The notes under the pieces are model-generated. The model made no database searches. It saw nothing but the letters and a program-made list of their open reading frames with translations, and was not told the DNA's origin. 32,000 nucleotides of DNA, taken from positions 750,001-782,000 of the forward strand of contig NC_006576.1 in NCBI RefSeq assembly GCF_000010065.1, written 5' to 3'. Every line of letters begins with the position of its first letter. The first letter of the stretch is position 1. Made by a program: the position numbers and the translations under genes. The stretch comes from Synechococcus elongatus PCC 6301. GTDB lineage: Bacteria > Cyanobacteriota > Cyanobacteriia > Synechococcales > Synechococcaceae. Positions 1 through 17,238 of the stretch are shown here, piece by piece.

Positions 1-1360
1 GGGCGTAGGGTTTGGCAACCGTCATGAAATTGAAATCGGGATCCAAGCCTTTGCCAACCCCTTCCAGGGTCGAAAACGCTCGCATCACAAAGGTAAAGGT
101 AGCGGGAAAGCGAAACGGCTGGTCGTAGGCAATCTCGTAAATATCGTCGCTAATCGCACTGATCGACTGGCCTTCAAAGGGGCGATCGAGGAAGTTATCG
201 AGCAGATATTGCACCGATCGCCGCACAGGGCCGAGATCGCCTGTGGGCAAAAGCGCTCCCAGTTCGACTAGGGCACTGACGATATCATCAGCATCTTTGC
301 GGGCAATGCCTAAGAAGACCTGCATCAACTTACTGCGGACATCAGTGCGAATCTCGCCCATCATGCCGAAGTCGTAGAAAATCAGGCGACCCGTCGGACT
401 AACCGCCAAGTTGCCCGGATGCGGATCAGCATGGAAGAAGCCGTGATTGAGCACTTGGCGTAGGTAGGCTTCGGCGTTGAGCTGCGAAATTTTCTGGCGA
501 TCGAGGTTGGCCGCTTCCAGCGCCGTGTAGTCACTGATTTTGATGCCGGGCAGATATTCCAGCGTCAGCACCCTCGGACTGGCATAGCGCCAATAGACTC
601 GCGGCACCAGCAACCAGTCGCAGTCGCGAAAATCACGCCGAAAGCGATCGGCATTGCGACCCTCGCGCAGGTAGTCGGTCTCTTGCCAAAGGATTCGGCA
701 GCATTCTTCGTAAATGCCCACCCAATCGCGCCCTTGGCCCCAGCGGCGATGGCGCTGAAAGTATTCAGCAATGCCCCGCAGAATCGCCAAATCGACGGTA
801 AACAGTTGCTGGAGGCCGGGGCGTTGCACCTTGACCACCACGGCTTCGCCGGTCTTCAGACGGGCGCGGTGAACTTGGCCTAGGCTGGCGGCCGCGAGAG
901 GAACCGGATCAAAGTCACTGAACAGTTCTTCAGGACTCGCCCCCAATTCATTGCTCAGGATCTGTTGAACCTGCTCTAGATCAAAGGCTGGGACTTGATC
1001 CTGCAGCTTCGAGAGTTCTTCGACATACTCGGCTGGAAATAGATCGGCCCGCGTTGAAAAGAGCTGCCCAACTTTAATAAAGGTTGGCCCCAGATCCAGA
1101 CAGGTTTCGCGGATCCAACTCGCTAATTTGCGGCGGCGTTGGTTTTGGCGATCGCTACTGAATCCTCCGAAATACGTCCAAGGTCGCTGAATCAGCCACA
1201 GTCGAAAACTAAGCAGCAGCACAAACCGCCAGATATCGGCACTGCGCTGCCAGCGTGGATAGCGTCGCCGATCCCAGCGATAGCGACGACGGGGTGGCTG
1301 GGGCGGCGAGGGAGCCGCTGCGATCGCGGCTGACTCAACAGAGAGAGCAGTCACAGCCAC
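1..1360 (-). CDS. ABC1/UbiB-family atypical protein kinase (AarF domain); about 453 N-terminal codons, with the C-terminus running off the left edge
   Basis: This ORF is absent from the ORF track because it is open to the window edge. Hand translation of the minus strand from GTG 1358-1360 gives AVTALSVESAAIAAAPSPPQPPRRRYRWDRRRYPRWQRSADIWRFVLLLSF...LASWIRETCLDLGPTFIKVGQLFSTRADLFPAEYVEELSKLQDQVPAFD. Positions 898-842 read LAAASLGQVHRARLKTGEA and 454-407 read VLNHGFFHADPHPGNL. These are hallmark ABC1 kinase motifs. The GTG directly abuts the TAG (1361-1363) of the upstream ORF. Confidence 0.85.
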   Translation of the reverse strand, partial: MAVTALSVESAAIAAAPSPPQPPRRRYRWDRRRYPRWQRSADIWRFVLLLSFRLWLIQRPWTYFGGFSSDRQNQRRRKLASWIRETCLDLGPTFIKVGQLFSTRADLFPAEYVEELSKLQDQVPAFDLEQVQQILSNELGASPEELFSDFDPVPLAAASLGQVHRARLKTGEAVVVKVQRPGLQQLFTVDLAILRGIAEYFQRHRRWGQGRDWVGIYEECCRILWQETDYLREGRNADRFRRDFRDCDWLLVPRVYWRYASPRVLTLEYLPGIKISDYTALEAANLDRQKISQLNAEAYLRQVLNHGFFHADPHPGNLAVSPTGRLIFYDFGMMGEIRTDVRSKLMQVFLGIARKDADDIVSALVELGALLPTGDLGPVRRSVQYLLDNFLDRPFEGQSISAISDDIYEIAYDQPFRFPATFTFVMRAFSTLEGVGKGLDPDFNFMTVAKPYA

Positions 1361-1690
1361 CTAGTCTGAAAGAGATTGGCGATACTGCTGCAGCGCAAAC
1401 CGGGTTGCAGCAATTTCCGCTCGTAGGTCATCCAACAGGGCTTGCAGATCCACATCCGTCGGACGGCTCGGTGCTGGCTCCTGCTCCAGATCCGTCTCGG
1501 CTTGCTGAATCACTTCCTGCACGAACTGCTGCAGCGTTTGCCGGTATTCTGCTTCCCAAATGCCGAAATCACTGAGGCGATCGGCAACCACTTCGCCCGA
1601 GGGCGCGCTGAAATTCACGGACGAGCGATCGCCCCAAGAAAAAGGCTTCCCGGCTGGGATCAGACGGAGCAGACAAGATAGCGTTAACAA
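1361..1690 (-). CDS. Hypothetical protein of 109 aa with an acidic, helical C-terminal half
   Basis: Track ORF on the same strand as its neighbours, abutting the ABC1 kinase start. The first codon is TTG (1688-1690) and there is no internal ATG, so the start is uncertain. I recognise no family motif. Confidence 0.4.
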   Translation of the reverse strand: MLTLSCLLRLIPAGKPFSWGDRSSVNFSAPSGEVVADRLSDFGIWEAEYRQTLQQFVQEVIQQAETDLEQEPAPSRPTDVDLQALLDDLRAEIAATRFALQQYRQSLSD

Positions 1691-1744
1691 ACGGCAACAG
1701 GGGCCATTATAACGATCGCCACTCGTCTGGCTCTGCTGCGATCA

Positions 1745-2326
1745 CTACTGGAGCGGCGGTGCAGTGGGGGTTGGAGCGACTGGCTCGGGTGCGGAGGGCG
1801 CGATCGGTTCGGGTGCGGGAGACGGTGTCGGTGCAACCAAGCTAGGCTCTGTAGCGCTCTCGGTGGATGGAGCCGCCCAAGCTGGTGGTTGCTCGCTCAG
1901 GCTATCTGTGGCGGCCGCGTCGGGAAACTCTTGGCTCGGCATGGGCATGACCGGCAGATCGGGTGCGATCGCTGTTGAGGGCTGGCTAGACCACTCGTCA
2001 ACGGCACTAGGAGGATTGACGGCACCGTGGCGGGCTTCTAGATCACGGTAGTGGGTGCCGGGAAGATTCGCTTCTGGAAAATCCTGTTCGCTCTGCAGGA
2101 TATTCGCTACTGGATTGAAGGTGGGGCGACTGAATCGCAAGGTCAGGGCAAAACTGGCGCCAAAGCCACATCCGATCGCGATCGCGAGCCATAAGCCGCC
2201 GTGAATTGCCGAGCGGCGGGGCTGGCGGGGAGGCGGACTGCTGGGACGTCTTTGTCCTGAACGCGCTGCTGCTTGGGAGGGCTGCTTAGGCGAAACGATG
2301 ATAGTGCGATCTTCGGGACGACTCAT
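1745..2326 (-). CDS. Proline-rich single-pass membrane protein, hypothetical
   Basis: The track ORF 1745..2371 begins at a TTG. The first ATG is at 2324-2326 (MSRPEDRTIIV...). It has a basic N-terminus, one hydrophobic span (GGLWLAIAIGCGFGASFALTL), and a P/A/S/E-rich tail (APTPSPAPEPIAPSAPEPVAPTPTAPP). Confidence 0.5.
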   Translation of the reverse strand: MSRPEDRTIIVSPKQPSQAAARSGQRRPSSPPPRQPRRSAIHGGLWLAIAIGCGFGASFALTLRFSRPTFNPVANILQSEQDFPEANLPGTHYRDLEARHGAVNPPSAVDEWSSQPSTAIAPDLPVMPMPSQEFPDAAATDSLSEQPPAWAAPSTESATEPSLVAPTPSPAPEPIAPSAPEPVAPTPTAPPLQ

Positions 2327-2388
2327 CGTGGCAATCTCATGAACAGCTCCAGCCCAGTCCAGGATCGCCAAGGGCGATCGCCTTCAGA

Positions 2389-2880
2389 CTAGCGATAGTT
2401 AGTGAACTGCAACGGCGCCGGAACGTCCTGTTGCTTGAGGTATTGAATCACAGTCTGCAAGTCATCCTTCGACTTAGCACTGACCCGCAGGGCATCTCCT
2501 TGAATCGAAACCTGCACTTTCTTGAACTGGTCACGAATCTGTTTCGACAGATCCTTCGCCAGCTCGCTGCTCAGGCCCCGCTGCAGGGTAATGACCTGAC
2601 GAACGCGATTACCGCTCGCAGTTTCGACTTTGCCGAAGTCAAAAATTTTCAGCGAGAGATTGCGCTTGGCGACTTTAGTTTGCAGCAGGGTGACGACCGC
2701 ATCCAAGCTGAACTCGCTGTCAGTGTTAATCGTCAGAGTCTCGGCAGTCAGTTCCAAGGTCGTAGCGGAATCTTTAAGATCGTAGCGATTGGTAATCTCG
2801 CGCCGCGCCTGATCAACAGCGTTGACCAGTTCTTGCTGATCGAAGTCGCTGACGACGTCAAAAGAGCTTGCAGTGGCCAT
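2389..2880 (-). CDS. yajQ: YajQ-family (UPF0234) nucleotide-binding protein
   Basis: 163 aa with an ATG start. The N-terminus [38 protein letters not shown] and the C-terminal ...LQFTNYR are characteristic of YajQ in sequence and length. Confidence 0.9.
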
Positions 2881-2952
2881 GGGGATTTAGGAATAACGAC
2901 GCGAAGAAACCCGATCGCAATCAGCGACTGCGGGCTGAGCAGGTAGCACTGC

Positions 2953-3471
2953 TCAATCGAAGTAGAACAAAGTGACGAGGTGGTGCTGGTCTTCAGCGTA
3001 ACGACAGGTTTCCAAGAGCGTGTGGCTGTCGTGGAAGGCAAAGCAGATCAGCTGCTGGCAGCGCGTCACGATCGCCTGGTTGCAGAGGGTGCTGGCTTCC
3101 GCCAAAGACAGGTGGTCATTCTCGGCATGTTCAACCAGGTGAATGACCTTTTCCAGTTGTTCCCGCGATTCTCGGGGTTGGCGATCGAGACTTTGGGGCA
3201 AAATCACCGTCAGCAGATTGGGGTCCGCTCGCATCGCACCCCGAATCACAGCCGCGTTGGTTCCCTGAGCACCGGAAGTCATCAGACGATTGCCCGCCAG
3301 CACGAGAGCGTAGCTCATCATCTCAATCAGGTGCTGGTGCGTGATCGGAACGTGGCGAGATCCAAGAATGGCAACACGCTTGGAGCTGGTTTGCTGAATA
3401 GCAGCTAGCTCTTGAGCGAGCTCGTCAATGCGATCGAGCTTGGGGATATCGAGGTCGATGGACTGGCTCAA
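2953..3471 (-). CDS. DprA/Smf-like Rossmann-fold (SLOG-type) protein, short form
   Basis: 172 aa. The core RVAILGSRHVP...LAGNRLMTSGAQGTNAAVIRGAM resembles the DprA/Smf nucleotide-binding fold (G-S-R ... SG-A-G-D/N). The start codon is TTG (3469-3471) and there is no nearby ATG. Confidence 0.6.
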   Translation of the reverse strand: MSQSIDLDIPKLDRIDELAQELAAIQQTSSKRVAILGSRHVPITHQHLIEMMSYALVLAGNRLMTSGAQGTNAAVIRGAMRADPNLLTVILPQSLDRQPRESREQLEKVIHLVEHAENDHLSLAEASTLCNQAIVTRCQQLICFAFHDSHTLLETCRYAEDQHHLVTLFYFD

Positions 3472-3657
3472 CGTCGAAACGATCGCAACGGCTTGCCCAT
3501 TTTACAGCAAGCCCTGAGCTGCTGCTCTTTAACCCGCTCCTGCTCCGCATAGCACTGCCTAGGGCTGCCCCGCTTGGGAAATCCCGCAAACCGTCCCAGA
3601 TCGGAAACCTGCTGGGGTCTAGCTCAGACAGGGGGATCGCAGCAGGATTGTGGGGAC

Positions 3658-4839
3658 TCAGGACGCAGCAGCGATCGCCGGCAATCCAAGCAGAGATTGC
3701 AGCCGAGGGAAGTCAAGCGCTTCCCGCACCAAGCGGCTGACATACTGGGCTTTAACGACCTCATGCAACCGCACTTGGCCAAAGGCTTGGTCGATGATTT
3801 CCACCGTTGTCAGGGTATCGAGCTGAACCGAGAGAATCGGGATTTCCATCTCTTCGGCCCGACTGATAATTTGCGGCAGCGGCGCGACCCGACCGGTCAA
3901 AATCAAGCACTGGGTCGAGGTTTCTAAGGCCGCCAGTTGAATGTCCGCACGATCGCCGCCGGTCACCACGGCCATGTTGCGACCCTTGCGGAAATACTCC
4001 ATCGCCGAGTTAACGTTCATCGCCCCAATCGTCAGGCTCTCGACCATCAGATCGAGGCGATCGCGGCAGCAGAGCACCTCAGCATTGAGGCGACTGACCA
4101 GTTCTGTGACGCTGACGCTGCGCAGCAGAGCGCTCTGGGGCAGGAGACCAAGGACGGGAATACCGCGAGCTTCGAGGAACGGCACCAGGGTTTCTCGGAC
4201 ATGATCTAGTTCGCTCCGAGGCACGGCATTGAGCACCACTCCCAAGAGGCGATCGCCGAGGGATTGTTGCGCCGCTAGCAGACTGTCCACCGACCCTGTT
4301 TCGGACCAACGATTGGCCAGCAAGACCGGCGCGTCTAAGGCCGCAGCCACAGCCGGCAGATCCAGACTGAACACCTGACCATCCACCAAACGGCCTGCGC
4401 CTTCAATCAGGGCAATATCCCCTGGCGGGCGATCGCGATACTGCTGGAGTTGGGTGAGGTAATCGGTACTATCAGTTTGCGCTAACCGCCGCTGCACACT
4501 GGTCGGATCCAGCATCACCAACGTGGGATAGCGCTGATCCTCACTGAGGTTGAGAGTTTCTGCGATGAAGCGAACGTCTTCATCGATCAGGACAGCGCCC
4601 GGTTTAACTGAACTGTCTTCAAAGCAAGTGCCCAAGGGCTTGCCGTAGGCAATCCTCAGCCCTTGTTGCTGAAAATACTGCGCAATCCCCAGCGTCAGTG
4701 CTGACTTACCGCTATAAGCTTCGGTGGACCCCAACAGAAGATATGGCGAAGACGGCAGCACTTTGCCCCCTGGATCATTTTCGTGGCGAATGTCCGACCA
4801 TTTTAACGGCGTCTTGAACCCTCCCCAGTACTCCGCCAT
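3658..4839 (-). CDS. P-loop (dethiobiotin-synthase/CobQ-like) plus DRTGG domain protein, resembling the N-terminal part of phosphotransacetylase
   Basis: The track ORF starts at TTG 4842, and ATG 4837-4839 is the next codon. It has a P-loop-like segment (LLGSTEAYSGKSALTLG). The C-terminal half contains MAVVTGGDRADIQLAALETSTQCLILTG, which is the DRTGG-domain signature. Confidence 0.75.
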   Translation of the reverse strand: MAEYWGGFKTPLKWSDIRHENDPGGKVLPSSPYLLLGSTEAYSGKSALTLGIAQYFQQQGLRIAYGKPLGTCFEDSSVKPGAVLIDEDVRFIAETLNLSEDQRYPTLVMLDPTSVQRRLAQTDSTDYLTQLQQYRDRPPGDIALIEGAGRLVDGQVFSLDLPAVAAALDAPVLLANRWSETGSVDSLLAAQQSLGDRLLGVVLNAVPRSELDHVRETLVPFLEARGIPVLGLLPQSALLRSVSVTELVSRLNAEVLCCRDRLDLMVESLTIGAMNVNSAMEYFRKGRNMAVVTGGDRADIQLAALETSTQCLILTGRVAPLPQIISRAEEMEIPILSVQLDTLTTVEIIDQAFGQVRLHEVVKAQYVSRLVREALDFPRLQSLLGLPAIAAAS

Positions 4840-7889: not shown

Positions 7890-10745
7890 CTAAGACTGTT
7901 TCACTTGAATTAGTTCTTGTAGGGTCTGGAGCAATTCTGGCTCGCGGAAAGGTTTGGTGAAGTAGGCGGCGGCTCCCAGATTGAGCGCTAAGCGCCGGTG
8001 CTTATCCCCGCTGCGTGAGGTCAACATAGCGATCGGTAGGTTTGCGCCAGCAACGATATTTTTGACTTGAGTCAGGAATCCATAACCATCCAACCGAGGC
8101 ATCTCCACATCACAAATGGCGGCTTCAACCTTTAAGCCATCTTTTAGTTTATCAATGGCTTCTTGGCCATCCTTAGCTTGTTCAACTCGATAGCCTGCTT
8201 TCTCTAAAATATTGGCTAAAAACCGTCTGACATTAATCGAGTCATCGATAATTAAGATGCTCTTCTGAGAGGGAAGTTGATAGGTTGCTGGCTGTATCGC
8301 TTTCAAGGAAAGACGACTAGGAACATTCGAATTCTGAATCCACTGCAAGAGCGAAAAGGTATCGACTAAAGGAACAATTCGCCCGTCACCCAGAATAGTG
8401 CAACTACTAAATCCCGGCGGCAAAGGAATCGTGCTATTTACTTGACGGATTGTAACCTCCTGTTCTCCCCAGTAGCGATCGACTTGAATGCCGACGAAAC
8501 TATTGCCCTGGTTAACAAGAAGAACAGTAGGCTGATTGATTGTCGGGACACCATCTAAACTAATGGGCGGGCAGGGCCGACTAAACTGAAACCACTGATC
8601 GAGCTGGAGCAGCGGAACCAGTATCTCATCGAGATTAAGAACTGTTTGACCAGCACTATTTAGAATCCAGCTTGGATTGAGTTCAATAATTTCCTCAATT
8701 ACATCAGTCGGGATGGCAACTAGAATATTGCTGACCTCGATGAGGAGAACCCGTGCAACCGAGAGAGAAAAAGGCACTGTAATCGTAAAAGTTGTGCCTT
8801 GGTTAGGTTTTGTTTCAATCTGGATATCTCCCCGAATCTGCTGAAGATTCGTGCGGACAACATCCATGCCAACCCCTCGGCCTGAGAGTTCGGTCACTTG
8901 CTCCGCAGTTGTAAATCCAGGCTCGAAAATCAAATCCAAAAGCTCGCGATCGCTGGCAGCTTCTAAGCTTGATTGATCTAGCCCCATCCGTTGGGCACGC
9001 TGGCGAATTTTCTGGAGATCAACGCCACACCCATCATCCCGAATTGTAATGACTGTTTGATTCCCTCGATAGGCTGCTGACACTTCGATGGTTGCTGTTG
9101 GGGATTTATCCCGAGATTGCCGCAGCTGAGGGGATTCAACACCATGGTCAAAGGCGCTGCGAACAAGGTGTAATAGCGGATCTGCTAGAAGCTCTAGAAT
9201 GGCGCGGTCAACTAGTGTATTCTCGCCGTTGATAATGAGCCGAACGTCTTTTCCATACTCTTGCCCTAGTTGGCGAATCATCCGAGGATAGCGATTGACC
9301 AAGTCAGCAAAGGGGCGCATTCTTACTTGGGTAAGGCGACCCTGCATCTGCTTCGCAGTTCGCCGCAAAGACTGTTCTGTCTGTTCCGTCTCTTCAAGGT
9401 TCGTTTCGATATCGCTAGTAATTTCTTGAATCTGAACAATGGTTTCCATCACGTCTTGGGAAACCAAATGCAGAGGGCTGTAGCGATCGAACTCCAAAAT
9501 ATCAAAGTTTTGGTGCCAAGAACTGCCGCCACTACCAACCAAACCGAAAGCTGTTGTTGCTGTCGCCGCGCGATCAGTCGTAGACCGTAACTCAAAGCTC
9601 GACTGCTCGAGTCGACGAACTTTTGTCTTGAGTGTTTGCAGAAGCTGCCGCATGCGCTTCAGTTGCAAACTGAGCCCATTCCGCTCAATATTCAATTCAC
9701 CAAACAATTCGCTCAGGTCTTCTAGTTGTTGAATCCCAACCCGTACAGTTCGTGCTTGGTTAATCTCTGACGTTAAATCTGTTGCATTTATTGGGGGATG
9801 AAGCGTTTGGGTTGTGATTGTCTCCGGCGTAAAGTCCAACTGACGAGCTTCAGCAACTGTCAAGCTGGACTGTATATTTTCCGAATTCCGAGTTGCTGTA
9901 ATTTGATTTTGGTGAATGACTTCCTTAGTTTGAGGGAAAGTTTCTGCTAAGCCAGAATTTGCTTCTAGAGTTATCCCCTCTGGAGACTGATCTTGAGCAA
10001 CAAATTGACTGGGCAGAGCATTGATTTGCTGGGTTAAAACGAGAGCCTGGCAATGTCTTAAGTCTTTAAGGATCTTGGTAGCGGTCGCCCTTAAATCAGT
10101 CGGCTGCTGTTCAAGAAGTTCAGCGATCGAGGTACAGAACTGACTGAACTGGGACAGTTCTAACATCTGCCCCAACCCCGCTAGCTCTTGGGCAACGATT
10201 GCAAATTCTTCCAATAAGCAGGGATGCTCTGGGGTTTGCAGCACCGACTCCAAACGTTGCAAGCACCCTTCAACCTCCGATTCAAACAGCAGCGATCGCA
10301 TATCATCGCCCGCTTCTTCCGAGAGCATTGCCAAATCAGCGTCAGGTTGAGGGTCCCCAAACTGCTCTCGGAGGACAGCAAATAAGGGTTGGACTTGACT
10401 CTCAAGCCATTGAGGTGAAGGGTCTGTCCCCTGGCGATTAACTTGCAGAACCTGATGGAGCCGATCAACTCCCTGAAGTAGCTGACGTTCTAGAGACTGG
10501 TCAAAGTTTTTGCCGCTGCGCATCACCTTAAAGAAGTCTTCAAGTTGATGCGCTAGTTCGCTGAGGGTGTTGAAGCCCATCATGGCCGCACCACCCTTGA
10601 TTGAATGGGCGGCCCGGAGGATGAGATCAACTTGCGATCGGCGATCGCTCGCTTGGCTTAAATCGACCAGTTCCTTTTCAATCGTGCCAAGGTATTCTTC
10701 AGCTTCTTCCAGAAATTGCAGTCGAAATAATCGCCTGAGGATCAC
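7890..10745 (-). CDS. pixL: Hybrid CheA-type histidine kinase (Hpt, Hpt-like, dimerisation, HATPase, CheW, REC); PixL/TaxAY-like
   Basis: GTG start at 10743-10745, 9 nt after the pixJ stop, with an in-frame TGA immediately upstream. The Hpt motif is LRAAHSIKGGAAMMGF, with the His47 codon at 10605-10607. ATP-lid motifs are IRDDGCGVD and GRGVGMDVV. A CheW-like segment follows. The C-terminal receiver is ILIIDDS...ICDVEMPRLDG...KPF. Confidence 0.9.
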   Translation of the reverse strand: MILRRLFRLQFLEEAEEYLGTIEKELVDLSQASDRRSQVDLILRAAHSIKGGAAMMGFNTLSELAHQLEDFFKVMRSGKNFDQSLERQLLQGVDRLHQVLQVNRQGTDPSPQWLESQVQPLFAVLREQFGDPQPDADLAMLSEEAGDDMRSLLFESEVEGCLQRLESVLQTPEHPCLLEEFAIVAQELAGLGQMLELSQFSQFCTSIAELLEQQPTDLRATATKILKDLRHCQALVLTQQINALPSQFVAQDQSPEGITLEANSGLAETFPQTKEVIHQNQITATRNSENIQSSLTVAEARQLDFTPETITTQTLHPPINATDLTSEINQARTVRVGIQQLEDLSELFGELNIERNGLSLQLKRMRQLLQTLKTKVRRLEQSSFELRSTTDRAATATTAFGLVGSGGSSWHQNFDILEFDRYSPLHLVSQDVMETIVQIQEITSDIETNLEETEQTEQSLRRTAKQMQGRLTQVRMRPFADLVNRYPRMIRQLGQEYGKDVRLIINGENTLVDRAILELLADPLLHLVRSAFDHGVESPQLRQSRDKSPTATIEVSAAYRGNQTVITIRDDGCGVDLQKIRQRAQRMGLDQSSLEAASDRELLDLIFEPGFTTAEQVTELSGRGVGMDVVRTNLQQIRGDIQIETKPNQGTTFTITVPFSLSVARVLLIEVSNILVAIPTDVIEEIIELNPSWILNSAGQTVLNLDEILVPLLQLDQWFQFSRPCPPISLDGVPTINQPTVLLVNQGNSFVGIQVDRYWGEQEVTIRQVNSTIPLPPGFSSCTILGDGRIVPLVDTFSLLQWIQNSNVPSRLSLKAIQPATYQLPSQKSILIIDDSINVRRFLANILEKAGYRVEQAKDGQEAIDKLKDGLKVEAAICDVEMPRLDGYGFLTQVKNIVAGANLPIAMLTSRSGDKHRRLALNLGAAAYFTKPFREPELLQTLQELIQVKQS

Positions 10746-10753
10746 TCATTGTT

Positions 10754-13700
10754 CTATTCCTCAGCTCCGACTCTAAAGGTGTCAACGGAGGATTTAAGTT
10801 TCTGAGCGACAGCCACAGTAGCCTGTAGTGAAGCGGAAATGTGACGGGAGGTGTCTGAAATTTCCTCTGAGAAACCGGCCATCTCCTCCATGAGGTTAGT
10901 CACAACATTAGAGGTCTGAGACTGGCTGACGGTTGCTTGCGAGATTGCCTGTACAAGTTGGTCAATCTGTTGGGAAACCTGCACGATTTCTTCAAGGCTT
11001 TTCTTAGTCGCCTCGACCAGCTGTGTTCCCTCGACTACTTGGCTGGTACCTGTTTCCATAGCCGTAACCACCTCATTCGTTTCTTGCTGAATCGTTTCAA
11101 CAATCTGCTCAATTTCCTTGGTAGCGTTAGCGGACCGTGTTGCTAACTGGCCAACCTCTTCTGCAACGACTGCAAAGCCACGACCTTCTTCACCAGCTCG
11201 TGCCGCCTCAATACTGGCATTAATTGCAAGTAGATTTGTTTGCAGAGCAATTTGGTTAATCAACGAGATCACTTTTGAGATCTGTTGAGAAGATTCACCG
11301 AGCCGCTTCACCTTCTTAGCAGTTTCAGCAACAGTTTCGCGTAGATGAAGAATACTGCGAACAGTCTCATCCATTGTTTGACCACTACTGATAGCTGTTT
11401 GCGATGATTTGCGTGCAACTTCAGCAGCTTGGTTTGCTGTGTTCGAGACATCAAGAATTGATTTCGACATCTCAGCAACAGCATTTAGGGTCTTTTTAAT
11501 CTTTTCTGCCTGACTTTGGGAGTCTGCTGCTAGTCGTTGCATCGAGTTAGCATCGCTATCCAGAGAAGTATTCACCTTCTGAGTGGAGGCTTTTACTTGG
11601 ACTACGACGGCTCGCAAACTTTCAATCAGAGAGTTGAAAATATCAGCAACTGTACTAATTTCACCGGCTGAGATGTCAGCACGAACAGTGAGATCACCTC
11701 GTGATGCATCTTCGACATCACTGAGAAGTTGAATCAGTTCGGCTTGAATCGCTTCGGTCCGTTGCTGTTGCTCTTGTGCCAGTTGCTCAGCGCGATCGCG
11801 TGCTGTTTCAGCTTGCTGTAGAAAATCTGCACGCGCTAAGGCTAAGCCAATTTGCGTGGCGAGTTGGCTAAACAAATCAATTTCAGATTGCTGCCAATCT
11901 CGTGCTCCTGAACATTGGTGAGCAACAAACAGGGCAATCAGTTTTTTCTCAACCACAATCGGGGCCACCAGATTGGCCTTGACTGCCAAAGGCTCCAATT
12001 GCTTGAGATGGCATTCCGTAAATCCAGCATTGTAAATATCAGGAGTCGCCTGAATGCGGCCTGCAGCATAGGCATCTACCCAATCCCGTCTGAAGCAGGG
12101 GTCATCGATCGTGATACTCAGTGCTGAGGGCCAGCCATATTCAACTGACTCTGCAATCACAGTACCTGACCAAGTTTCATCGAAGGCATAGACCACAACG
12201 CGATCGGTAGCGAGCGCACGGCGAGTCTCTTTCACTGCAGTTTGAAGCACATCTTCAGGATTAGCTTGCGCAACTAATCTGGAGGTAATTTCGCGGATTT
12301 GCTCTGCCCGTTTTGCCTCTGTAACCTGTTGCTCAAGGAAACGGGCGCGGGTAATTGCCAACCCTAGTTGCGTTGCTAGCTGACTAAACAGATCAATCTC
12401 AGATCGCTGCCAGTTACGTGGCCCTGAACATTGATGAGCAACAAACAAAGCAATTAGTTTTTTCTCAACCACAATTGGGGCAACCAGATTGGCTTTGACT
12501 GCCAAGGGCTCCAGTTGTTTGAGATGGCATTCTGTGAGGCCTGCATTGTAGATGTCTGGAGTCGCTTGAATTCGACCTGCAGCATAGGCATCCACCCAAT
12601 CGCGTCGGAAGCAAGGGTCATCAATCGTGACATTGAGGGCAGAAGGCCAAGAAGGGTTAACCGACTCAGCGGTTACTGTACCAGCCCAAGTACTGTCAAA
12701 TTCGTAGACAACAACGCGATCAGTATCGAGTGCACGACGAGTCGCGTGTACCGCTAGTTGCAAGACACTTGCAACGTTTGTAGGAGAAACGAGCTGTGAG
12801 GTGATGTCTCGAACTAGTTTGGCACGGTTGACCTCTGACACTTGTTGCTCAAGGAAACGAGCCCGAGTCGTTGCCAAACCAACTTGTGTCGCGAGCTGAC
12901 TAAAGAGATCAATTTCAGACTGTTGCCAATTGCGTGGGCCGGAACATTGATGCGCGATGAATAAGGCAATCAGTTTTTTCTCAACCACAATGGGCGCAAC
13001 CAGATTGGCTTTGACCGCCAAGGGCTCCAGTTGCTGAATATGACATTCGGTTAGGCCTGCATTATAAATATCTGCTGTCGCCTGAACGCGTCCAGCCGCG
13101 TAGGCTTCAACCCAATCTCTACGGAAGCAGGGGTCATCAATGACAACGTTGAGGGCCGCTGGCCAATTAGAGTCGCTCGACTCAGCAACGATCTTGCCAC
13201 TCCAATTCTCATCAAATTCATAGACCACAACGCGATCGGCCTTGATTGCACGGCGGGTCTCTTGAACAGCTGTTCTGAGCACGCTCTTAACATCAGCTTG
13301 AGCAACTAACTCTGATGTAATTGACCGCACAAGTTTGGCCCGATTGGCTTCAGCAATTTGCTGTTCTAAGAAGCGCGCGCGGGTCATTGCCAAACCGACC
13401 TGTGTGGCTATTTGGGCGAACAGATCGATTTCAGATTGCTGCCAGTCTCTTGGGCCTGAGCATTGGTGGGCAATAAACAGAGCGATTAGTCTTTTCTCGA
13501 CCACAATGGGCGCAACCAGATTGGCTTTGACCGCCAAGGGCTCCAGTTGCTGAATATGACATTCGGTTAGGCCTGCATTATAAATATCTGCTGTCGCCTG
13601 AACGCGTCCAGCCGCATAGGCTTCAACCCAGTCCCGACGAAAACAGGGGTCGTCAATGACAACATTGAGTCCTGATGGCCAATTGGGGTCGCCAGACTCC

Positions 13701-14974
13701 GCAATAATTTTGCCGCTCCACTTCTCATCGAATTCATAAACGATGACGCGGTCGGCTTCGAGAGCCCTCCGAGTTTCTTGGACAGCTGTTCTCAGCACCC
13801 CCTCAACATCAGCCTGAGCCACCAGCTCTGTGGTGATGGTTCGCACAAGCTTAGCGCGTTCTGCTTCAATCACCTGCTGCTCTAGGAACAGCGCGCGCGT
13901 CATAGCTAAGCCAACTTGTGTGGCAAGCTGAGTCATGAGATCAACTTCTAACTGCTTCCACTGGTACGGCCCAGAGCATTGGTGAGCAATGAATAGACCA
14001 ATCAGTCGTCTCTCAACAATGATCGGGGTAACTAGGTTGGCACGAACTGCAATCGGCTCCAGTTGCTTGATATGGCATTCAGTTAAATTCGCATCATAAA
14101 TATCAGCTGTGACCTGAACCCGACCCGCTGCGTAGGCCGCTACCCAATCTTTGCGGAAACAAGGATCATCAATGGTTACCTGCAGAGCTTGGGGCCATCC
14201 TGGATCAACCGACTCAGCGATGATCGTTCCAGCCCAAGTCTCATCAAACTTGTAGACAACCACGCGATCACATCCGATCGCAGCGCGAGCCTCTTGGACT
14301 GCGACATTCAGAACGTCAGTCACATTGGCTTGAGAAATCAGCCGCAGCGTAATTTCACGGACCAGCTGATTGACCCGAACTGTTTCTGAGCGTTGTTGCT
14401 CCCGACTGACCTCTGCAGTTGCTAAGGCTGTTTGAATTTGACTGGCAGCGTGGTTAATTTCTTGCCCTAAAACGGCAATCTCATCGTCACCATCCTCGGC
14501 AACGGCAACATTCACATCCCCTTGACTGAGCTTTTCAAGAGCTGCGATCGCAGCTTGCAAGCGTCGGCTACTGCGGTTGGCCAAAGCAGCTGCAATTATG
14601 CCGACCGCCACGGCTGATAAGCCGGTACCCCAGAGCAGAGTCAGGAAAAGACTGCGTTTGAGCTGGTCGGCTTCCACCTGCGCTGTTGGACTGCTGCTTG
14701 TTTCGGTCATCTCGGTAATTGACCGGTTGACGAGGTTATGAACGGTGACTCCTACCCCTAGGACAGGCAGGACACCCATAGCAATCGCTAGCAGGGTCAA
14801 CTTGAGCTTGAGTCCCGTGCGCGCTGGTTTGTTAGCTGGGCCAGAGAGAGAACTCGTTTCAACCGAAGTGAATGACGTCACCTGATCAGCACCGTTTAGT
14901 TTTGGGGTCAGCGCTTCAGTCGTTTGATTGTTGATGGAAGCGGGGGTGCTTTCAGGGCGTTGGGTGGTGGACAT
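10754..14974 (-). CDS. pixJ: Methyl-accepting chemotaxis-type photoreceptor: 2 TM, HAMP, five DXCF cyanobacteriochrome GAF domains and an MCP signalling domain; PixJ-like
   Basis: 1406 aa with ATG at 14972-14974. Two hydrophobic spans lie at about aa 57-79 and 108-132, followed by a HAMP-like linker. There are five repeats, each with DDPCF and, 28 residues later, TECH (the canonical bilin Cys-His). The conserved MCP hairpin is [34 protein letters not shown]. Confidence 0.92.
11807..14389 (-). repeat. Five in-frame tandem repeats of 516 nt (172 aa), each encoding one GAF domain inside pixJ
   Basis: The DXCF Cys codons lie at 14159-14161, 13643-13645, 13127-13129, 12611-12613 and 12095-12097, giving a constant spacing of exactly 516 nt. 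Block 12984-13099 is identical base for base to 13500-13615. Confidence 0.9.
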
Positions 14975-15045: not shown

Positions 15046-15558
15046 TTAAATAGCGTGGGGCTGCAGGCTCTTGGCATGGGCGATCGCAGCAGCATCTAAG
15101 ACCAACAACAACTCTTGATCTTGGAGGTAGCAGCCTCGCAAGAAAGGCACCAAGGAGGCATCCACGGAGCCGACAGGAGATTGGATATCGCTGGGATTAA
15201 GCCGGCTCAGCCCTTCAATTTGTTGAATGGCTAACCCCAGTAATTGGCCCGCTACTTGGATGACGACAACAGCGTATTGCCGTAAATCCAGCATCAGCAT
15301 GGGTAACCCCAGCAACTGCGGTAGATCGATGACCCAAATCACGCGGTTGCGGTGATTGAGTAAACCCAAGATAGTGCCGGGCATGTTGGGCATCAAGGTT
15401 AACTGTTGATGAGTGACCATCACGACTTCTTGAGCCTCAACCGTCGGAATCACCGCGATCGTAGTATCACTCAACCTGAGCTTTAAAAAAGACTGAGTGG
15501 TTTGATCAGCAGCTCCAGTATTTGTTAATTCAAAGGAGAGAGAACTATTCATAGCCAC
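15046..15558 (-). CDS. pixI: CheW-like coupling protein, PixI-like
   Basis: 170 aa, consisting of a single CheW domain (FLKLRLSDTTIAVIPTVEAQEVVMV...GLLNHRNRVIWVIDL...YAVVVIQV). The track start is GTG 15558, and ATG 15550-15552 lies two codons in, so either could be the start. Confidence 0.85.
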   Translation of the reverse strand: MAMNSSLSFELTNTGAADQTTQSFLKLRLSDTTIAVIPTVEAQEVVMVTHQQLTLMPNMPGTILGLLNHRNRVIWVIDLPQLLGLPMLMLDLRQYAVVVIQVAGQLLGLAIQQIEGLSRLNPSDIQSPVGSVDASLVPFLRGCYLQDQELLLVLDAAAIAHAKSLQPHAI

Positions 15559-15571
15559 CTATAGACCTCGG

Positions 15572-15934
15572 CTAGAAGTCAACTGAGCGAACAGCCTTTA
15601 CTAAATCTTCCTGTTGGAAAGGCTTAATGACGTAAGCATCAGCCCCCTGTTTCATCGCCCAGAGGCGATCAATCTCTTGATTTTTGGAACTGCAGACAAT
15701 GACAGGTAGCTTTTCTGTCTCGGGATTTTTCTTGAGGCTCCGGCACAATTCAAAGCCACTCATGCCAGGCATGACCACATCAGTCACAACAACATCAGGC
15801 TTAAACTGGCTCACCTTGTTCAGTGCTTCTTTGGCATCAGCAGCCCCGATGACTGTGTAACCGCTATTTCGCAAGTAGGTGGTGATTAGCTCCATTTCAG
15901 AAGCGGTGTCTTCTACAACAAGTACTGTACTCAT
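15572..15934 (-). CDS. pixH: Single-domain CheY-like response regulator, PixH-like
   Basis: 120 aa with an ATG start. Receiver motifs are VLVVEDT, PDVVVTDVVMPGMSG, VIVCSSK and YVIKPF. Confidence 0.9.
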   Translation of the reverse strand: MSTVLVVEDTASEMELITTYLRNSGYTVIGAADAKEALNKVSQFKPDVVVTDVVMPGMSGFELCRSLKKNPETEKLPVIVCSSKNQEIDRLWAMKQGADAYVIKPFQQEDLVKAVRSVDF

Positions 15935-15978: not shown

Positions 15979-17238
15979 CTAAAACTGCTTGTGCAAATGC
16001 TGATTAACGATGTTGAGTAATCCCTCCTGAGTGAAGGGTTTGGTGAGGTAGTCAGTCGCGCCGGACATCTTTGCCTTAGCGCGATCGATCAAGCCGGTAT
16101 TACCCGTAACCATGATGATCGGAGTCGTTTTGAAGTTGGGATGGTTACGGACAACTTTGCAGAATTTATAACCATCAACGTTTGGCATTCCTACATCTAG
16201 CAAAATCAGATCTGGCTCAATACGCATGACTTCCATGAGAGCTTTCACAGAATCAATAATCGTGATTACCTCAAACCGATCTTCATCTAGAAATCGGCGT
16301 AGCTCGCTCAAGATGATCGGGCTGTCGTCAATACAAACAATTTTGACTGGACGAGCAGTTGCCGAAGGAGAAGAAGTTAAATTGTTCGAAGTATCTACCG
16401 GACCAGCGATCGCAGTATTGCCAGAAATTAAATCGCTTCTCAAAAGGGGCGGTAGTTTATCAAATGGCGGTTGTGGCTCTCTAAAAAAAACTACGCCTTC
16501 TTGAATATAAGGATCAAGACTGCGCATCAACTTGATCTCATCTTGATGAATGAGTGCAGCCAAATGACGCAGACTGTACCCCTTCAGTAAATTTCCCAGC
16601 TTTTGAAGCTTCTCAGGACTAAACTTATTGTTACTCGTACTTTGACTAAAGAGATAGGGGCTCTGAAAAGGCGAGTAGACCTTCTCAGAAAGCCCCGACC
16701 ATTCTCTTAATCGTTGAAACGTCTCATCTAGGAGAGGGAAAACTGTAAATTCAGTCAAAATTGGCAGCGAGGGATCTAGAGCTAGAAATCTGTGACTCGC
16801 AGTTTGAAGACTCAGAAAAGACTCTAAGGTCTCTTTGATCAGATTTTTGATCAAGAGATCTGTTTGAAACTGGTTGATAAATCCTTCAGATCTCAACCAA
16901 GACAATGCTTGATAAACAGCAGTTGAATTAGACCCTTCTTGTTTTTCAAATAGGGATCGTATCTGCTGGCGAATAGGACGATCAATATTCGGGATCTCAG
17001 CACTAAAAGCCTTAAGATTCCGTTCCAAGCAATCGAAGGGATCGATGGAGGTTATGCCATAGAAAAGATTGCCGTTATGCAGGTAAAATATCCAGCTGAC
17101 ATCTTGACTCAAAATAGTTAAGCAACCACTTGCTCTAGACTCAGCTAGCTGACTAAGCAAGTTTGCTGGGCTGAGTGCTGCTGTTGATCGATCTGCGGCA
17201 GAGTACACCATCAACTGCATTCCACAAAATCTACTCAT
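15979..17238 (-). CDS. pixG: PatA-type response regulator (N-terminal PATAN domain plus C-terminal REC), PixG-like
   Basis: 419 aa with ATG at 17236-17238. The N-terminal region of about 280 aa (SGCLTILSQDVSWIFYLHNGNLFYG...) resembles a PATAN domain. The C-terminal receiver is VKIVCIDDSP...PDLILLDVGMPNVDG...IIMVTG...YLTKPF. It is the first gene of the minus-strand operon. Confidence 0.85.
   Translation of the reverse strand: MSRFCGMQLMVYSAADRSTAALSPANLLSQLAESRASGCLTILSQDVSWIFYLHNGNLFYGITSIDPFDCLERNLKAFSAEIPNIDRPIRQQIRSLFEKQEGSNSTAVYQALSWLRSEGFINQFQTDLLIKNLIKETLESFLSLQTASHRFLALDPSLPILTEFTVFPLLDETFQRLREWSGLSEKVYSPFQSPYLFSQSTSNNKFSPEKLQKLGNLLKGYSLRHLAALIHQDEIKLMRSLDPYIQEGVVFFREPQPPFDKLPPLLRSDLISGNTAIAGPVDTSNNLTSSPSATARPVKIVCIDDSPIILSELRRFLDEDRFEVITIIDSVKALMEVMRIEPDLILLDVGMPNVDGYKFCKVVRNHPNFKTTPIIMVTGNTGLIDRAKAKMSGATDYLTKPFTQEGLLNIVNQHLHKQF

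What the first reader, a model, noticed from the sequence alone, without database searches (positions are those of the whole stretch)
11807..14389. Exactly phased 516-nt GAF repeats in pixJ with a 116-nt perfectly identical tract (gene-conversion signature)
The five DXCF Cys codons sit at 14159, 13643, 13127, 12611 and 12095 (codon 3-prime-most coordinates 14161, 13645 and so on). Every repeat is therefore exactly 516 nt, with no indel in 2.6 kb.

Repeats 2 and 3 are identical at every base over 12984-13099 and 13500-13615. This tract encodes [38 protein letters not shown], the bilin-binding Cys-His region. The same two repeats diverge substantially immediately downstream of the tract. Repeat 4 carries many synonymous differences over the homologous tract, so the identity is not explained by protein constraint alone.

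This pattern points to recent intragenic gene conversion or unequal recombination. Such events could also change GAF copy number in frame and so tune the photoreceptor.
Basis: seen in the sequence. Interest (0 to 1): 0.72.

Follow-up and report, generated by a model that had tools for sequence, protein, structure and literature searches.

The report
Gene conversion in PixJ photoreceptor repeats
The five light-sensing GAF domains of the Synechococcus elongatus phototaxis receptor PixJ are exactly 516 nt apart because a rigid helical linker fixes their spacing, and two of them share a 116-nt stretch copied from one to the other by recombination, the same process that gave some related strains a sixth domain.

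Summary
The gene (minus strand, 10754-14974; 1406 aa) is pixJ of Synechococcus elongatus, the known phototaxis photoreceptor PixJSe. Its protein is identical to the PCC 6301 entry. Five DXCF GAF units repeat every 516 nt with no indel, and 12984-13099 equals 13500-13615 at all 116 bases.

The gene-conversion reading is strongly supported:
- 38 of 38 codons are identical where 13.9 are expected (P about 10^-18).
- The tract holds 45 consecutive agreeing polymorphic sites (0 of 2000 permutations).
- Synonymous sites are saturated everywhere else.
- The tract is only about 75% identical to its counterpart in the PCC 11801 clade, so the DNA sequence itself is not constrained.

Copy number does vary. 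PCC 11801, IITB4 and another strain carry six GAFs, while PCC 11802 and IITB7 carry five. The extra unit is a 5'-R3/3'-R2 chimera, as unequal crossover predicts.

One correction: the exact phasing is not a conversion signature. The 172-aa period, or 172+7, holds across distant cyanobacteria, and a structure model shows one continuous 45-residue helix linking neighbouring GAFs.

The conversion predates the split between UTEX 3055 and PCC 7942/6301. Any effect on photoreceptor tuning is untested. The process is a known one, seen here in a known gene, but I found no published description of it.

The parts
10754..14974 (-). pixJ (PixJSe / Synpcc7942_0858 orthologue): HAMP, five DXCF GAF domains, MCP signalling domain; 1406 aa
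   Evidence: ORF. Pfam hits for HAMP, GAF x5 and MCPsignal. The protein is identical to PCC 6301 BAD78872.1 (P0128) and differs from PCC 7942 by 1 aa.
11795..14374 (-). Array of five 516-nt (172-aa) GAF units: R1 13859-14374, R2 13343-13858, R3 12827-13342, R4 12311-12826, R5 11795-12310
   Evidence: There is no indel. Pairwise nucleotide identity is 65-80%.
13500..13615 (-). Conversion tract, copy in R2 (unit coordinates u243-358). It encodes [38 protein letters not shown], including the canonical bilin-binding Cys-His (Cys472 codon 13561-13559).
   Evidence: Alignment to TePixJ 3VV4.
12984..13099 (-). Conversion tract, copy in R3, identical at 116 of 116 nt to 13500-13615 (Cys644 codon 13045-13043)
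   Evidence: It is also present in PCC 7942. In UTEX 3055 it carries one substitution at u272 and extends to u370.
12480..12518 (-). Probable second, shorter conversion patch in R4 (u308-346). It matches R2/R3 with one mismatch; in UTEX 3055 the same stretch carries 5 synonymous differences within 13 nt.
   Evidence: SNP-cluster scan statistic p = 5e-5.
13304..13438 (-). Coding region of the continuous 45-residue helix (aa 513-557) that joins GAF R2 to GAF R3; the repeat boundary lies inside it
   Evidence: AlphaFold model from a 6-row alignment: mean pLDDT 78.8, helix at model residues 149-193 with block pLDDT 84-93. The only length variation among homologues is a 7-residue block in this linker.
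14432..14584 (-). HAMP domain coding region (aa 131-181)
10874..11422 (-). MCP signalling domain coding region (aa 1185-1367)
15979..17238 (-). Upstream operon gene: PatA_N plus receiver response regulator (pixG-like)
   Evidence: ORF. Pfam hits of the orthologous locus L001.
15572..15934 (-). CheY-like receiver (pixH-like)
15046..15558 (-). CheW-like (pixI-like)
7890..10745 (-). CheA-like hybrid kinase (pixL-like), immediately downstream of pixJ
   Evidence: The window carries one extra T at 10726-10728 relative to PCC 7942, UTEX 3055 and PCC 11802.

Best explanation
The region is the tandem GAF array of pixJ, the bilin-binding cyanobacteriochrome/MCP receptor that steers type-IV-pilus phototaxis in Synechococcus elongatus.

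(a) The exact 516-nt period is a structural constant. Each GAF is joined to the next by one continuous helix of about 45 residues. The unit length is therefore fixed at 172 aa, or 172+7 (one heptad) in other lineages, and indels are not tolerated. The comparative data and the model show this. The link to signalling register is inferred.

(b) The 116-nt identity between R2 and R3 is a non-reciprocal homologous-recombination (gene-conversion) tract between adjacent, misaligned repeats.
- It sits on the most conserved coding segment, the Cys-His chromophore pocket. The location is shown. That this is where paralogues keep enough identity to seed heteroduplex is inferred.
- The event happened shortly before UTEX 3055 and PCC 7942/6301 diverged. 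Since then it has decayed by single substitutions.
- The same segment has been re-converted in R4 and R5, and independently in the PCC 11801 clade.

When the same misaligned pairing resolves as a crossover, it adds or removes whole 516-nt units in frame. This produced the 6-GAF alleles, whose extra unit is a 5'-R3/3'-R2 chimera.

Inferred and not shown: dependence on RecA, use of sister or other chromosome copies of this polyploid cell as template, and any effect on phototaxis.
For: Tract statistics:
- 116 of 116 nt are identical; the next-longest run is 27 nt.
- 0 of 29.7 synonymous sites differ in the tract. Other repeat pairs show pS 0.55-0.75 in the tract, and the R2/R3 flanks show 0.70 and 0.99.
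- 38 of 38 codons are identical against 13.9 expected, while all other pairs and regions have z between -2.2 and +3. log10 P = -17.7.
- 45 consecutive concordant polymorphic sites, global p < 0.0005.

No nucleotide-level constraint:
- The tract is 74-78% identical to any R2/R3-type unit of the other clade and 79-82% to R4/R5.
- There is no Rfam hit, no promoter-like site, and no unusual RNA fold (z = -0.30).

Not an artefact: the tract is present in the independent assemblies PCC 7942 CP000100 and UTEX 3055 CP033061.

Concerted evolution: R1, R4 and R5 are positionally orthologous between clades, but R2 and R3 are not.

Ongoing exchange:
- Within the PCC 11801 clade, strain-to-strain differences are 3-4.5% in R2/R3(/R4) against 0.3-1.7% in the flanks and termini.
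- In R2/R3(/R4), 59-100% of the SNPs in each unit (about three quarters overall) have both alleles present in paralogous repeats, against about 18% expected.
- The variable-site table is visibly mosaic.
- Between UTEX 3055 and PCC 7942, SNP density is 2.7% in u243-370 of R2-R5 against 0.8% elsewhere (Fisher p = 4e-4), with 5 SNPs in 13 nt of R4 (p = 5e-5).

Copy number:
- 6 GAFs in P0001, P0121, P0124 and P0125; 5 GAFs in P0122, P0123 and P0126.
- The extra unit is like R4 at 40-56 informative sites on the left and like R2 at 21-29 on the right.

Period:
- Every spacing in 80 loci is 172 or 344 aa.
- More distant homologues show 172 or 179.
- The 7-residue block lies in the linker.
- The model has continuous helices at residues 149-193 and 321-365.
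Against: - Donor and recipient of the 116-nt tract cannot be assigned, because the outgroup clade has homogenised its own R2/R3 and synonymous sites between clades are saturated (pS 0.69).
- The event is not very recent. It predates a 1% divergence between strains.
- The permutation tests are my own scripts, not GENECONV or RDP.
- The hot-spot explanation (more residual identity leads to more initiation) is an inference. Selection that tolerates conversion only where R2 and R3 proteins are the same would give the same map.
- The structure model rests on a 6-row alignment (pLDDT 78.8). A single-sequence model was poor (43.6).
- The window appears to come from the original PCC 6301 sequence, which is reported to contain many errors (PMC9239245). 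Its three private SNPs in R2/R3 may therefore not be real.
Confidence: 0.85

Rival explanations
1. The identity is kept by purifying selection on the nucleotide sequence itself. Candidates are an embedded RNA element, an internal promoter or antisense transcript, or extreme codon selection at the chromophore pocket.
For: The tract covers the most conserved protein segment. Codon identity among other repeat pairs in this segment is slightly above expectation (z 1.9-3.0).
Against: - The same segment differs at 17-19 synonymous positions in R4 and R5.
- It is 74-78% identical to any R2/R3-type unit of the PCC 11801 clade.
- There is no Rfam match, no promoter-like site, and the RNA fold z-score is -0.30.
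- The slight excess among other pairs fits short older conversions.
Confidence: 0.02
2. R3 is a recent duplicate of R2 (or the reverse), and the flanks diverged quickly while the pocket region did not.
For: R2 and R3 are the most similar pair overall (80% nt, 88% aa).
Against: - Synonymous sites outside the tract are at saturation. Downstream, 14 of 44 codons for identical amino acids are the same against 16.8 expected by chance.
- The tract has zero synonymous change. No uniform clock can produce both.
- Both clades already have R2 and R3.
Confidence: 0.03
3. Assembly or sequencing artefact: reads from one repeat were mis-assigned to the other, or repeat copies were collapsed or expanded.
For: The repeats are 516 nt long and similar. 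The window matches the old PCC 6301 record, which is reported to be error-rich.
Against: - The tract is identical in PCC 7942 (CP000100) and differs at one base in UTEX 3055 (CP033061), both independent projects.
- The flanks are only 70% identical, so mis-assembly is unlikely.
- The 5- and 6-GAF counts recur in several independent records per strain group.
Confidence: 0.02
4. The mosaicism comes mainly from recombination between strains, that is, allelic import of pixJ segments by natural transformation, rather than from exchange between repeats within one genome.
For: S. elongatus is naturally transformable. In the PCC 11801 clade, copy number does not follow flank similarity: 11802 with 5 GAFs is closest to CP144288 with 6 GAFs.
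Against: - Allelic import cannot make R2 and R3 identical to each other unless the pairing is out of register, which is the same mechanism.
- About three quarters of strain SNPs in R2/R3(/R4) are variants already present in paralogous repeats.
- Import probably adds to intragenic exchange and does not replace it.
Confidence: 0.08

Closest known systems
PixJSe of Synechococcus elongatus UTEX 3055 / Synpcc7942_0858 (Yang et al. 2018, PNAS 115:E12378; known to me through citing papers PMC7332365, PMC11181946, PMC10781874; the paper itself was not readable here)
   Same: It is the same gene. The window protein is 1 aa from PCC 7942 and 3 aa from UTEX 3055. It is a five-GAF blue/green photoreceptor in a tax1-like operon.
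   Different: None of the papers I could search describes a conversion tract, concerted evolution of R2/R3, or 5-versus-6 GAF alleles. I could not check the 2018 paper's own text.
TePixJ GAF (PDB 3VV4, 4FOF/4GLQ, 2M7U/2M7V), the DXCF blue/green cyanobacteriochrome
   Same: Each repeat aligns over its whole GAF with E = 6e-52. The DXCF Cys and the canonical Cys-His are conserved.
   Different: By recollection, not tested here, TePixJ has a single such GAF. Here five are chained at a fixed 172-aa pitch.
Concerted evolution of tandem domain repeats inside bacterial genes by gene conversion and unequal crossover (general knowledge, for example repeat-bearing surface proteins of Gram-positive cocci; rDNA-type concerted evolution reviewed in PMC3595265)
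   Same: Sharp identity tracts occur between paralogous repeats. Paralogues group by genome rather than by position. Copy number changes in whole units, with chimeric junction repeats.
   Different: The repeats here are old and mostly saturated at synonymous sites. Homogenisation is partial and focused on one roughly 130-nt segment. The repeat is a signalling photosensor module whose length is fixed by a helical linker, not an extracellular spacer.
Helical-linker (signalling-helix / coiled-coil) length constraints in modular sensor proteins (general knowledge; not tested against a specific family here)
   Same: Unit lengths are quantised (172 or 179 aa), and the difference is one heptad in the inter-domain helix.
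   Different: The constraint applies to a chain of up to 8 GAFs rather than to a single sensor-effector junction. The few exceptions (171, 173, 182, 168+175) are unexplained.

Membership tests
DXCF cyanobacteriochrome GAF (TePixJ/SyPixJ1 type) | GAF fold with the canonical bilin-binding Cys in a Cys-His motif | tested here: met
   Five Pfam GAF stretches. TECH is present in all five units. R2 aligns to TePixJ 3VV4 at E = 6e-52 with 'agltech' conserved.
DXCF cyanobacteriochrome GAF (TePixJ/SyPixJ1 type) | Second Cys in an Asp-Xaa-Cys-Phe motif | tested here: met
   DPCF at aa 270, 442, 614, 786 and 958.
DXCF cyanobacteriochrome GAF (TePixJ/SyPixJ1 type) | Covalent bilin binding and a reversible blue/green photocycle | not testable with these tools
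   Citing papers report PixJSe to be blue/green-responsive.
PixJ/Tax1-type phototaxis MCP | HAMP plus C-terminal MCP signalling domain, in an operon with PatA-type and CheY-type regulators, CheW and CheA | tested here: met
   Pfam hits. Neighbouring ORFs. Pfam hits of the orthologous locus.
Intragenic (ectopic) gene conversion | An identity tract with sharp borders that is significantly longer than expected from the pair's overall divergence | tested here: met
   45 concordant polymorphic sites, 0 of 2000 permutations.
Intragenic (ectopic) gene conversion | Synonymous divergence drops to zero in the tract while the flanks are diverged | tested here: met
Intragenic (ectopic) gene conversion | The tract sequence is not conserved in orthologues or other paralogues, which excludes constraint on the DNA | tested here: met
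   74-78% to any R2/R3-type unit of the other clade and 79-82% to R4/R5. No embedded element found.
Intragenic (ectopic) gene conversion | Paralogues group by genome rather than by position | tested here: met
   Met for R2/R3 only. R1, R4 and R5 group by position.
Intragenic (ectopic) gene conversion | Donor and recipient identified, or the event observed directly | tested here: inconclusive
   The outgroup is saturated and itself homogenised. Direction can be inferred only for the short R4 patch.
Unequal-crossover copy-number variation | Alleles differ by whole repeat units, in frame | tested here: met
   4215-nt and 4731-nt genes with 5 and 6 units, all spaced 172 aa.
Unequal-crossover copy-number variation | A chimeric junction unit with the polarity expected from misaligned pairing | tested here: met
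   The extra unit is 5' R3-type and 3' R2-type in all three 6-GAF alleles.
Unequal-crossover copy-number variation | Copy number verified by reads that span the array | not testable with these tools
   The only support is recurrence in several deposited records.

The most novel reading that the evidence does not exclude
PixJ GAF arrays may be recombination-tuned modular sensors. A heptad-quantised helical linker makes every whole-unit gain, loss or pocket swap structurally legal. A conversion hot spot over the chromophore-pocket coding segment spreads or reshuffles pocket residues among GAFs. The resulting natural alleles, such as 5 versus 6 GAFs in PCC 11802 and PCC 11801, would differ adaptively in the sign or sensitivity of phototaxis.
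Probability: 0.2. Interest if true: 0.7.

Novelty: new member of a known kind. Interest (0 to 1): 0.45.

Why it matters
PixJSe is reported to control both positive and negative phototaxis through its multiple GAF domains, but how a chain of near-identical sensors is integrated is not understood.

Three results here make that question easier to test:
- Nature has already made 5- and 6-GAF alleles and pocket-swapped mosaics in closely related, culturable strains.
- The unit pitch is fixed at 172 aa (or +7) by a continuous helix. This tells engineers which deletions and insertions should be tolerated.
- R2 and R3 have not evolved independently, so treating the five GAFs as independent lineages in phylogenies of cyanobacteriochromes would mislead.

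It is also a practical warning. Short-read assemblies and PCR of this gene are prone to error, and recombination can change the array during strain propagation.

Tried and rejected
1. Selection against homology. R2/R3 downstream pS is 0.99, which looked like excess synonymous divergence. I rejected the idea because codon identity at conserved residues is 14 of 44 against 16.8 expected (z = -0.9), which is plain saturation.

2. The three window-versus-PCC 7942 SNPs, all inside R2/R3, as micro-conversions. I rejected this because UTEX 3055 has the PCC 7942 state at all three. They are therefore private to the window lineage. They may even be errors of the original PCC 6301 sequence.

3. Searching for more S. 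elongatus-like alleles.
- The genome-contig scan returned only distant cyanobacteria, mostly Nostoc.
- An exact 33-mer of the tract found nothing in metagenomes.
- The protein scan of metagenomes gave one 71%-identical relative with a single GAF (L089), which is useless for polarity.

4. HIP1 (GCGATCGC) as a recombination signal at the tract borders. There is none inside the array.

5. A single-sequence AlphaFold model of R2-R3 was too poor to use (pLDDT 43.6). I replaced it with a model from a small alignment.

6. Yang et al. 2018 could not be read, either by DOI or by PMC id.
Full report
**What is there.** The finding lies inside one long minus-strand ORF, 10754..14974, of 1406 aa. Pfam finds a HAMP domain, five GAF stretches and a C-terminal MCP signalling domain. 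The neighbouring genes are a PatA-type regulator, a CheY-like receiver and a CheW upstream, and a CheA-like kinase downstream.

A protein search identifies the gene as the Synechococcus elongatus GAF-domain chemotaxis protein. The window's product is identical to the PCC 6301 entry, 1 aa from PCC 7942 (Synpcc7942_0858) and 3 aa from UTEX 3055. CP033061 is named as UTEX 3055 in PMC9239245. This protein is the published photoreceptor PixJSe, a five-GAF blue/green sensor controlling positive and negative phototaxis. A single repeat aligns to the TePixJ GAF structures at E = 6e-52, with both the DXCF Cys and the Cys-His conserved.

**Checking the observation.**
- The five DPCF Cys codons are at the stated coordinates, 516 nt apart. 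The repeat finder gives five in-register copies.
- I set the units as R1 13859-14374, R2 13343-13858, R3 12827-13342, R4 12311-12826 and R5 11795-12310.
- 12984-13099 and 13500-13615 are identical at 116 of 116 nt. The next-longest in-register run between any repeats is 27 nt.
- Just downstream, R2 and R3 differ at about 30% of positions although the proteins are nearly the same.

**Is it more than chance or protein constraint?**
- By Nei-Gojobori counting, R2/R3 have 0 of 29.7 synonymous sites changed in the tract. Every other repeat pair has pS 0.55-0.75 there, and the R2/R3 flanks have 0.70 and 0.99.
- At residues that are identical between two repeats, the chance of using the same codon can be estimated from the gene's own codon usage. 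Every pair and region sits near that expectation (z from -2.2 to +3.0) except the R2/R3 tract, with 38 of 38 against 13.9 expected (z = 8.5; log10 P = -17.7).
- A GENECONV-style test on polymorphic sites gives 45 consecutive agreeing sites, never reached in 2000 permutations. No other pair in the window is significant globally.
- The 0.99 downstream value is plain saturation, not selection against homology.

**Alternatives at the DNA level.**
- The tract's sequence is 79-82% identical to R4/R5 and 74-78% to any R2/R3-type unit of the PCC 11801 clade. So nothing constrains these particular nucleotides.
- There is no Rfam match, no promoter-like site, and the RNA fold is ordinary (z = -0.30).
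- It is not an assembly artefact. PCC 7942 has the same 116-nt tract. UTEX 3055 has it with one substitution.

**Comparison among strains: the 7942/6301/UTEX 3055 clade.**
- PCC 7942 differs from the window at only three bases of the gene, all in R2/R3.
- UTEX 3055 carries the PCC 7942 state at all three. They are therefore private to the window. They may be errors of the original PCC 6301 record, which PMC9239245 reports to be error-rich.
- In UTEX 3055, R2's tract equals the window's. R3 has C at u272, and at u359 it has C, the same as R2. Its longest R2/R3 run is therefore u273-370, 98 nt.
- The simplest history is one conversion covering at least u243-370 before these strains split (1.0% divergence in this gene), followed by single substitutions.
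- SNPs between UTEX 3055 and PCC 7942 are concentrated in the homologous segment of R2-R5: 2.7% against 0.8% elsewhere (Fisher p = 4e-4).
- This includes five synonymous SNPs within 13 nt of R4 (scan p = 5e-5). There, the PCC 7942/window R4 matches R2/R3. This looks like a second, shorter and later conversion into R4 (window 12480-12518).

**Comparison among strains: the PCC 11801 clade.**
- The proteins are 84% identical to the window's, and synonymous sites between the clades are saturated (pS 0.69).
- R1, R4 and R5 pair by position across clades: 76-79% nt against 63-72% for paralogues, and 81-89% aa.
- R2 and R3 do not. They are 80% (window) and 87% (11802) alike within a genome, but 75-77% across clades with either partner. 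That is concerted evolution of the R2/R3 pair.
- Within this clade, strain-to-strain differences are 3-4.5% in R2/R3(/R4) against 0.3-1.7% in the termini and 1-kb flanks.
- In R2/R3(/R4), 59-100% of the SNPs in each unit (about three quarters overall) have both alleles present at the same position of other repeats, against about 18% expected for random mutation.
- The variable-site table is a patchwork.
- PCC 11802 has its own significant R2/R3 tract at a different place, u133-220.

**Copy number.**
- PCC 11801, IITB4 and the P0121 group encode 1576 aa with six GAFs. PCC 11802 and IITB7 encode 1404 aa with five. All are spaced 172 aa.
- Older, frameshifted records of the same strain groups show the same counts (P0125 six, P0126 five).
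- In all three 6-GAF alleles, the third unit matches the following unit at 40-56 informative sites on its 5' side. It matches R2 at 21-29 sites on its 3' side.
- That is the polarity expected when R3 of one copy pairs with R2 of another and a crossover resolves between them.
Since the 7942 clade has five units, six is probably the derived state, although later exchanges blur this.

**The exact phasing is something else.**
- In 80 loci from Nostoc, Symploca, Caldora, Tolypothrix, Geminocystis and others, every DXCF-to-DXCF and Cys-His-to-Cys-His spacing is 172 or 344 aa.
- In more distant PixJ-like proteins the spacing is 172 or 179. Gloeomargarita shows 172, 179, 172, 179, and Mastigocoleus shows 179 seven times. 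A few exceptions occur (171, 173, 182, 168+175).
- Aligning Cys-to-Cys segments shows that the only length difference is one 7-residue block in the inter-GAF linker.
- An AlphaFold model of R2-R3 from a small alignment (mean pLDDT 78.8) has one continuous helix at residues 149-193, joining the last helix of one GAF to the first of the next. A second such helix lies at residues 321-365. Both have block pLDDT around 84-93.
- So 'no indel in 2.6 kb' reflects a conserved structural pitch with heptad quantisation, not recent duplication.
- This pitch is, however, what makes unequal exchange harmless to the reading frame and probably to the fold.

**Generality.**
- Within PixJ-like proteins of other lineages, the GAFs of one protein are also more alike than GAFs of different lineages: Cyanothece 91%, Gloeomargarita g2-g5 74-80%.
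- The permutation test reaches p <= 0.01 in 9 of 75 other arrays, where fewer than one is expected. These arrays are mostly related Nostoc orthologues, so they are not independent.

**Mechanism and limits.**
- Shown: the tract, its statistics, its phylogenetic distribution, the hot segment, the copy-number alleles and their chimeric unit, and the conserved pitch.
- Inferred: that exchange is RecA-type homologous recombination between misaligned repeats on sister or other chromosome copies.
- Inferred: that the pocket segment is hot because it retains the most identity among repeats (79-85% among R2-R5 against 63-79% in the rest of the unit, apart from the R2/R3 pair).
- Inferred: that any of this changes phototaxis.
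- The donor of the 116-nt tract cannot be determined.

**Literature.** Searches for cyanobacteriochrome with gene conversion, concerted evolution or unequal crossing-over, and for PCC 11801/11802 with PixJ, found nothing on this. The S. elongatus comparative-genomics paper does not mention pixJ. I could not read Yang et al. 2018.

**Verdict.** This is a clear, well-documented case of a familiar evolutionary process in a known photoreceptor gene. The naturally occurring 5/6-GAF alleles and the fixed helical pitch add value.

Noticed in passing
window 10726-10728 (start of the cheA-like pixL gene; canonical ATG at 10749-10747): The window has one extra T in a T-run, 22 nt after the ATG, relative to PCC 7942, UTEX 3055 and PCC 11802. 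The ATG frame then stops after 16 codons. The long ORF instead starts at an overlapping GTG (10745), giving MILRRLF... in place of MSDPQAII.... PMC9239245 reports many erroneous indels in the original PCC 6301 sequence, so this is probably a sequencing error rather than biology.
   Followed up: partly
window 13491, 13427 and 13256 (gene positions 1484, 1548, 1719): These are the only three substitutions between the window and PCC 7942 in pixJ. All lie in R2/R3, and all are private to the window, because UTEX 3055 agrees with PCC 7942. One causes K495R. They are either real PCC 6301 mutations or errors of the old record.
   Followed up: partly
window 11792 to 14544: HIP1 (GCGATCGC) occurs 63 times in the 32-kb window, about one per 500 nt, but not once inside the GAF array. 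The nearest sites are 3 nt past the end of R5 and 170 nt before R1. This 2752-nt gap is the longest in the window.
   Followed up: no
L008-L087 and proteins P0003, P0007, P0015, P0017, P0073: The GAF-to-GAF pitch in tandem DXCF arrays is 172 aa across distant cyanobacteria, or 179 aa (one heptad more, inserted in the linker helix). Rare exceptions (171, 173, 182, 168+175) are unexplained.
   Followed up: partly
L068, L072, L080, L082, L024, L066, L037, L026, L086 (Nostoc and relatives): Nine of 75 other tandem-GAF arrays show a significant in-register identity tract of roughly 30-65 nt between repeats in the same permutation test. This suggests that inter-GAF conversion is widespread. The arrays are related to one another, so the count is not of independent events.
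   Followed up: partly
L004-L007 and L001 (PCC 11801 clade), 1-kb flanks of pixJ: GAF copy number does not follow flank similarity. PCC 11802 (5 GAFs) is closest to CP144288 (6 GAFs). This hints at recurrent gain and loss, or at exchange of pixJ alleles between strains.
   Followed up: no
L089 (VFQU01000057.1) 1001-3880: The closest non-elongatus relative found in metagenomes (71% identity in the best segment) has a large periplasmic region and only one DXCF GAF. The five-unit array therefore appears to have expanded within the S. elongatus lineage.
   Followed up: no
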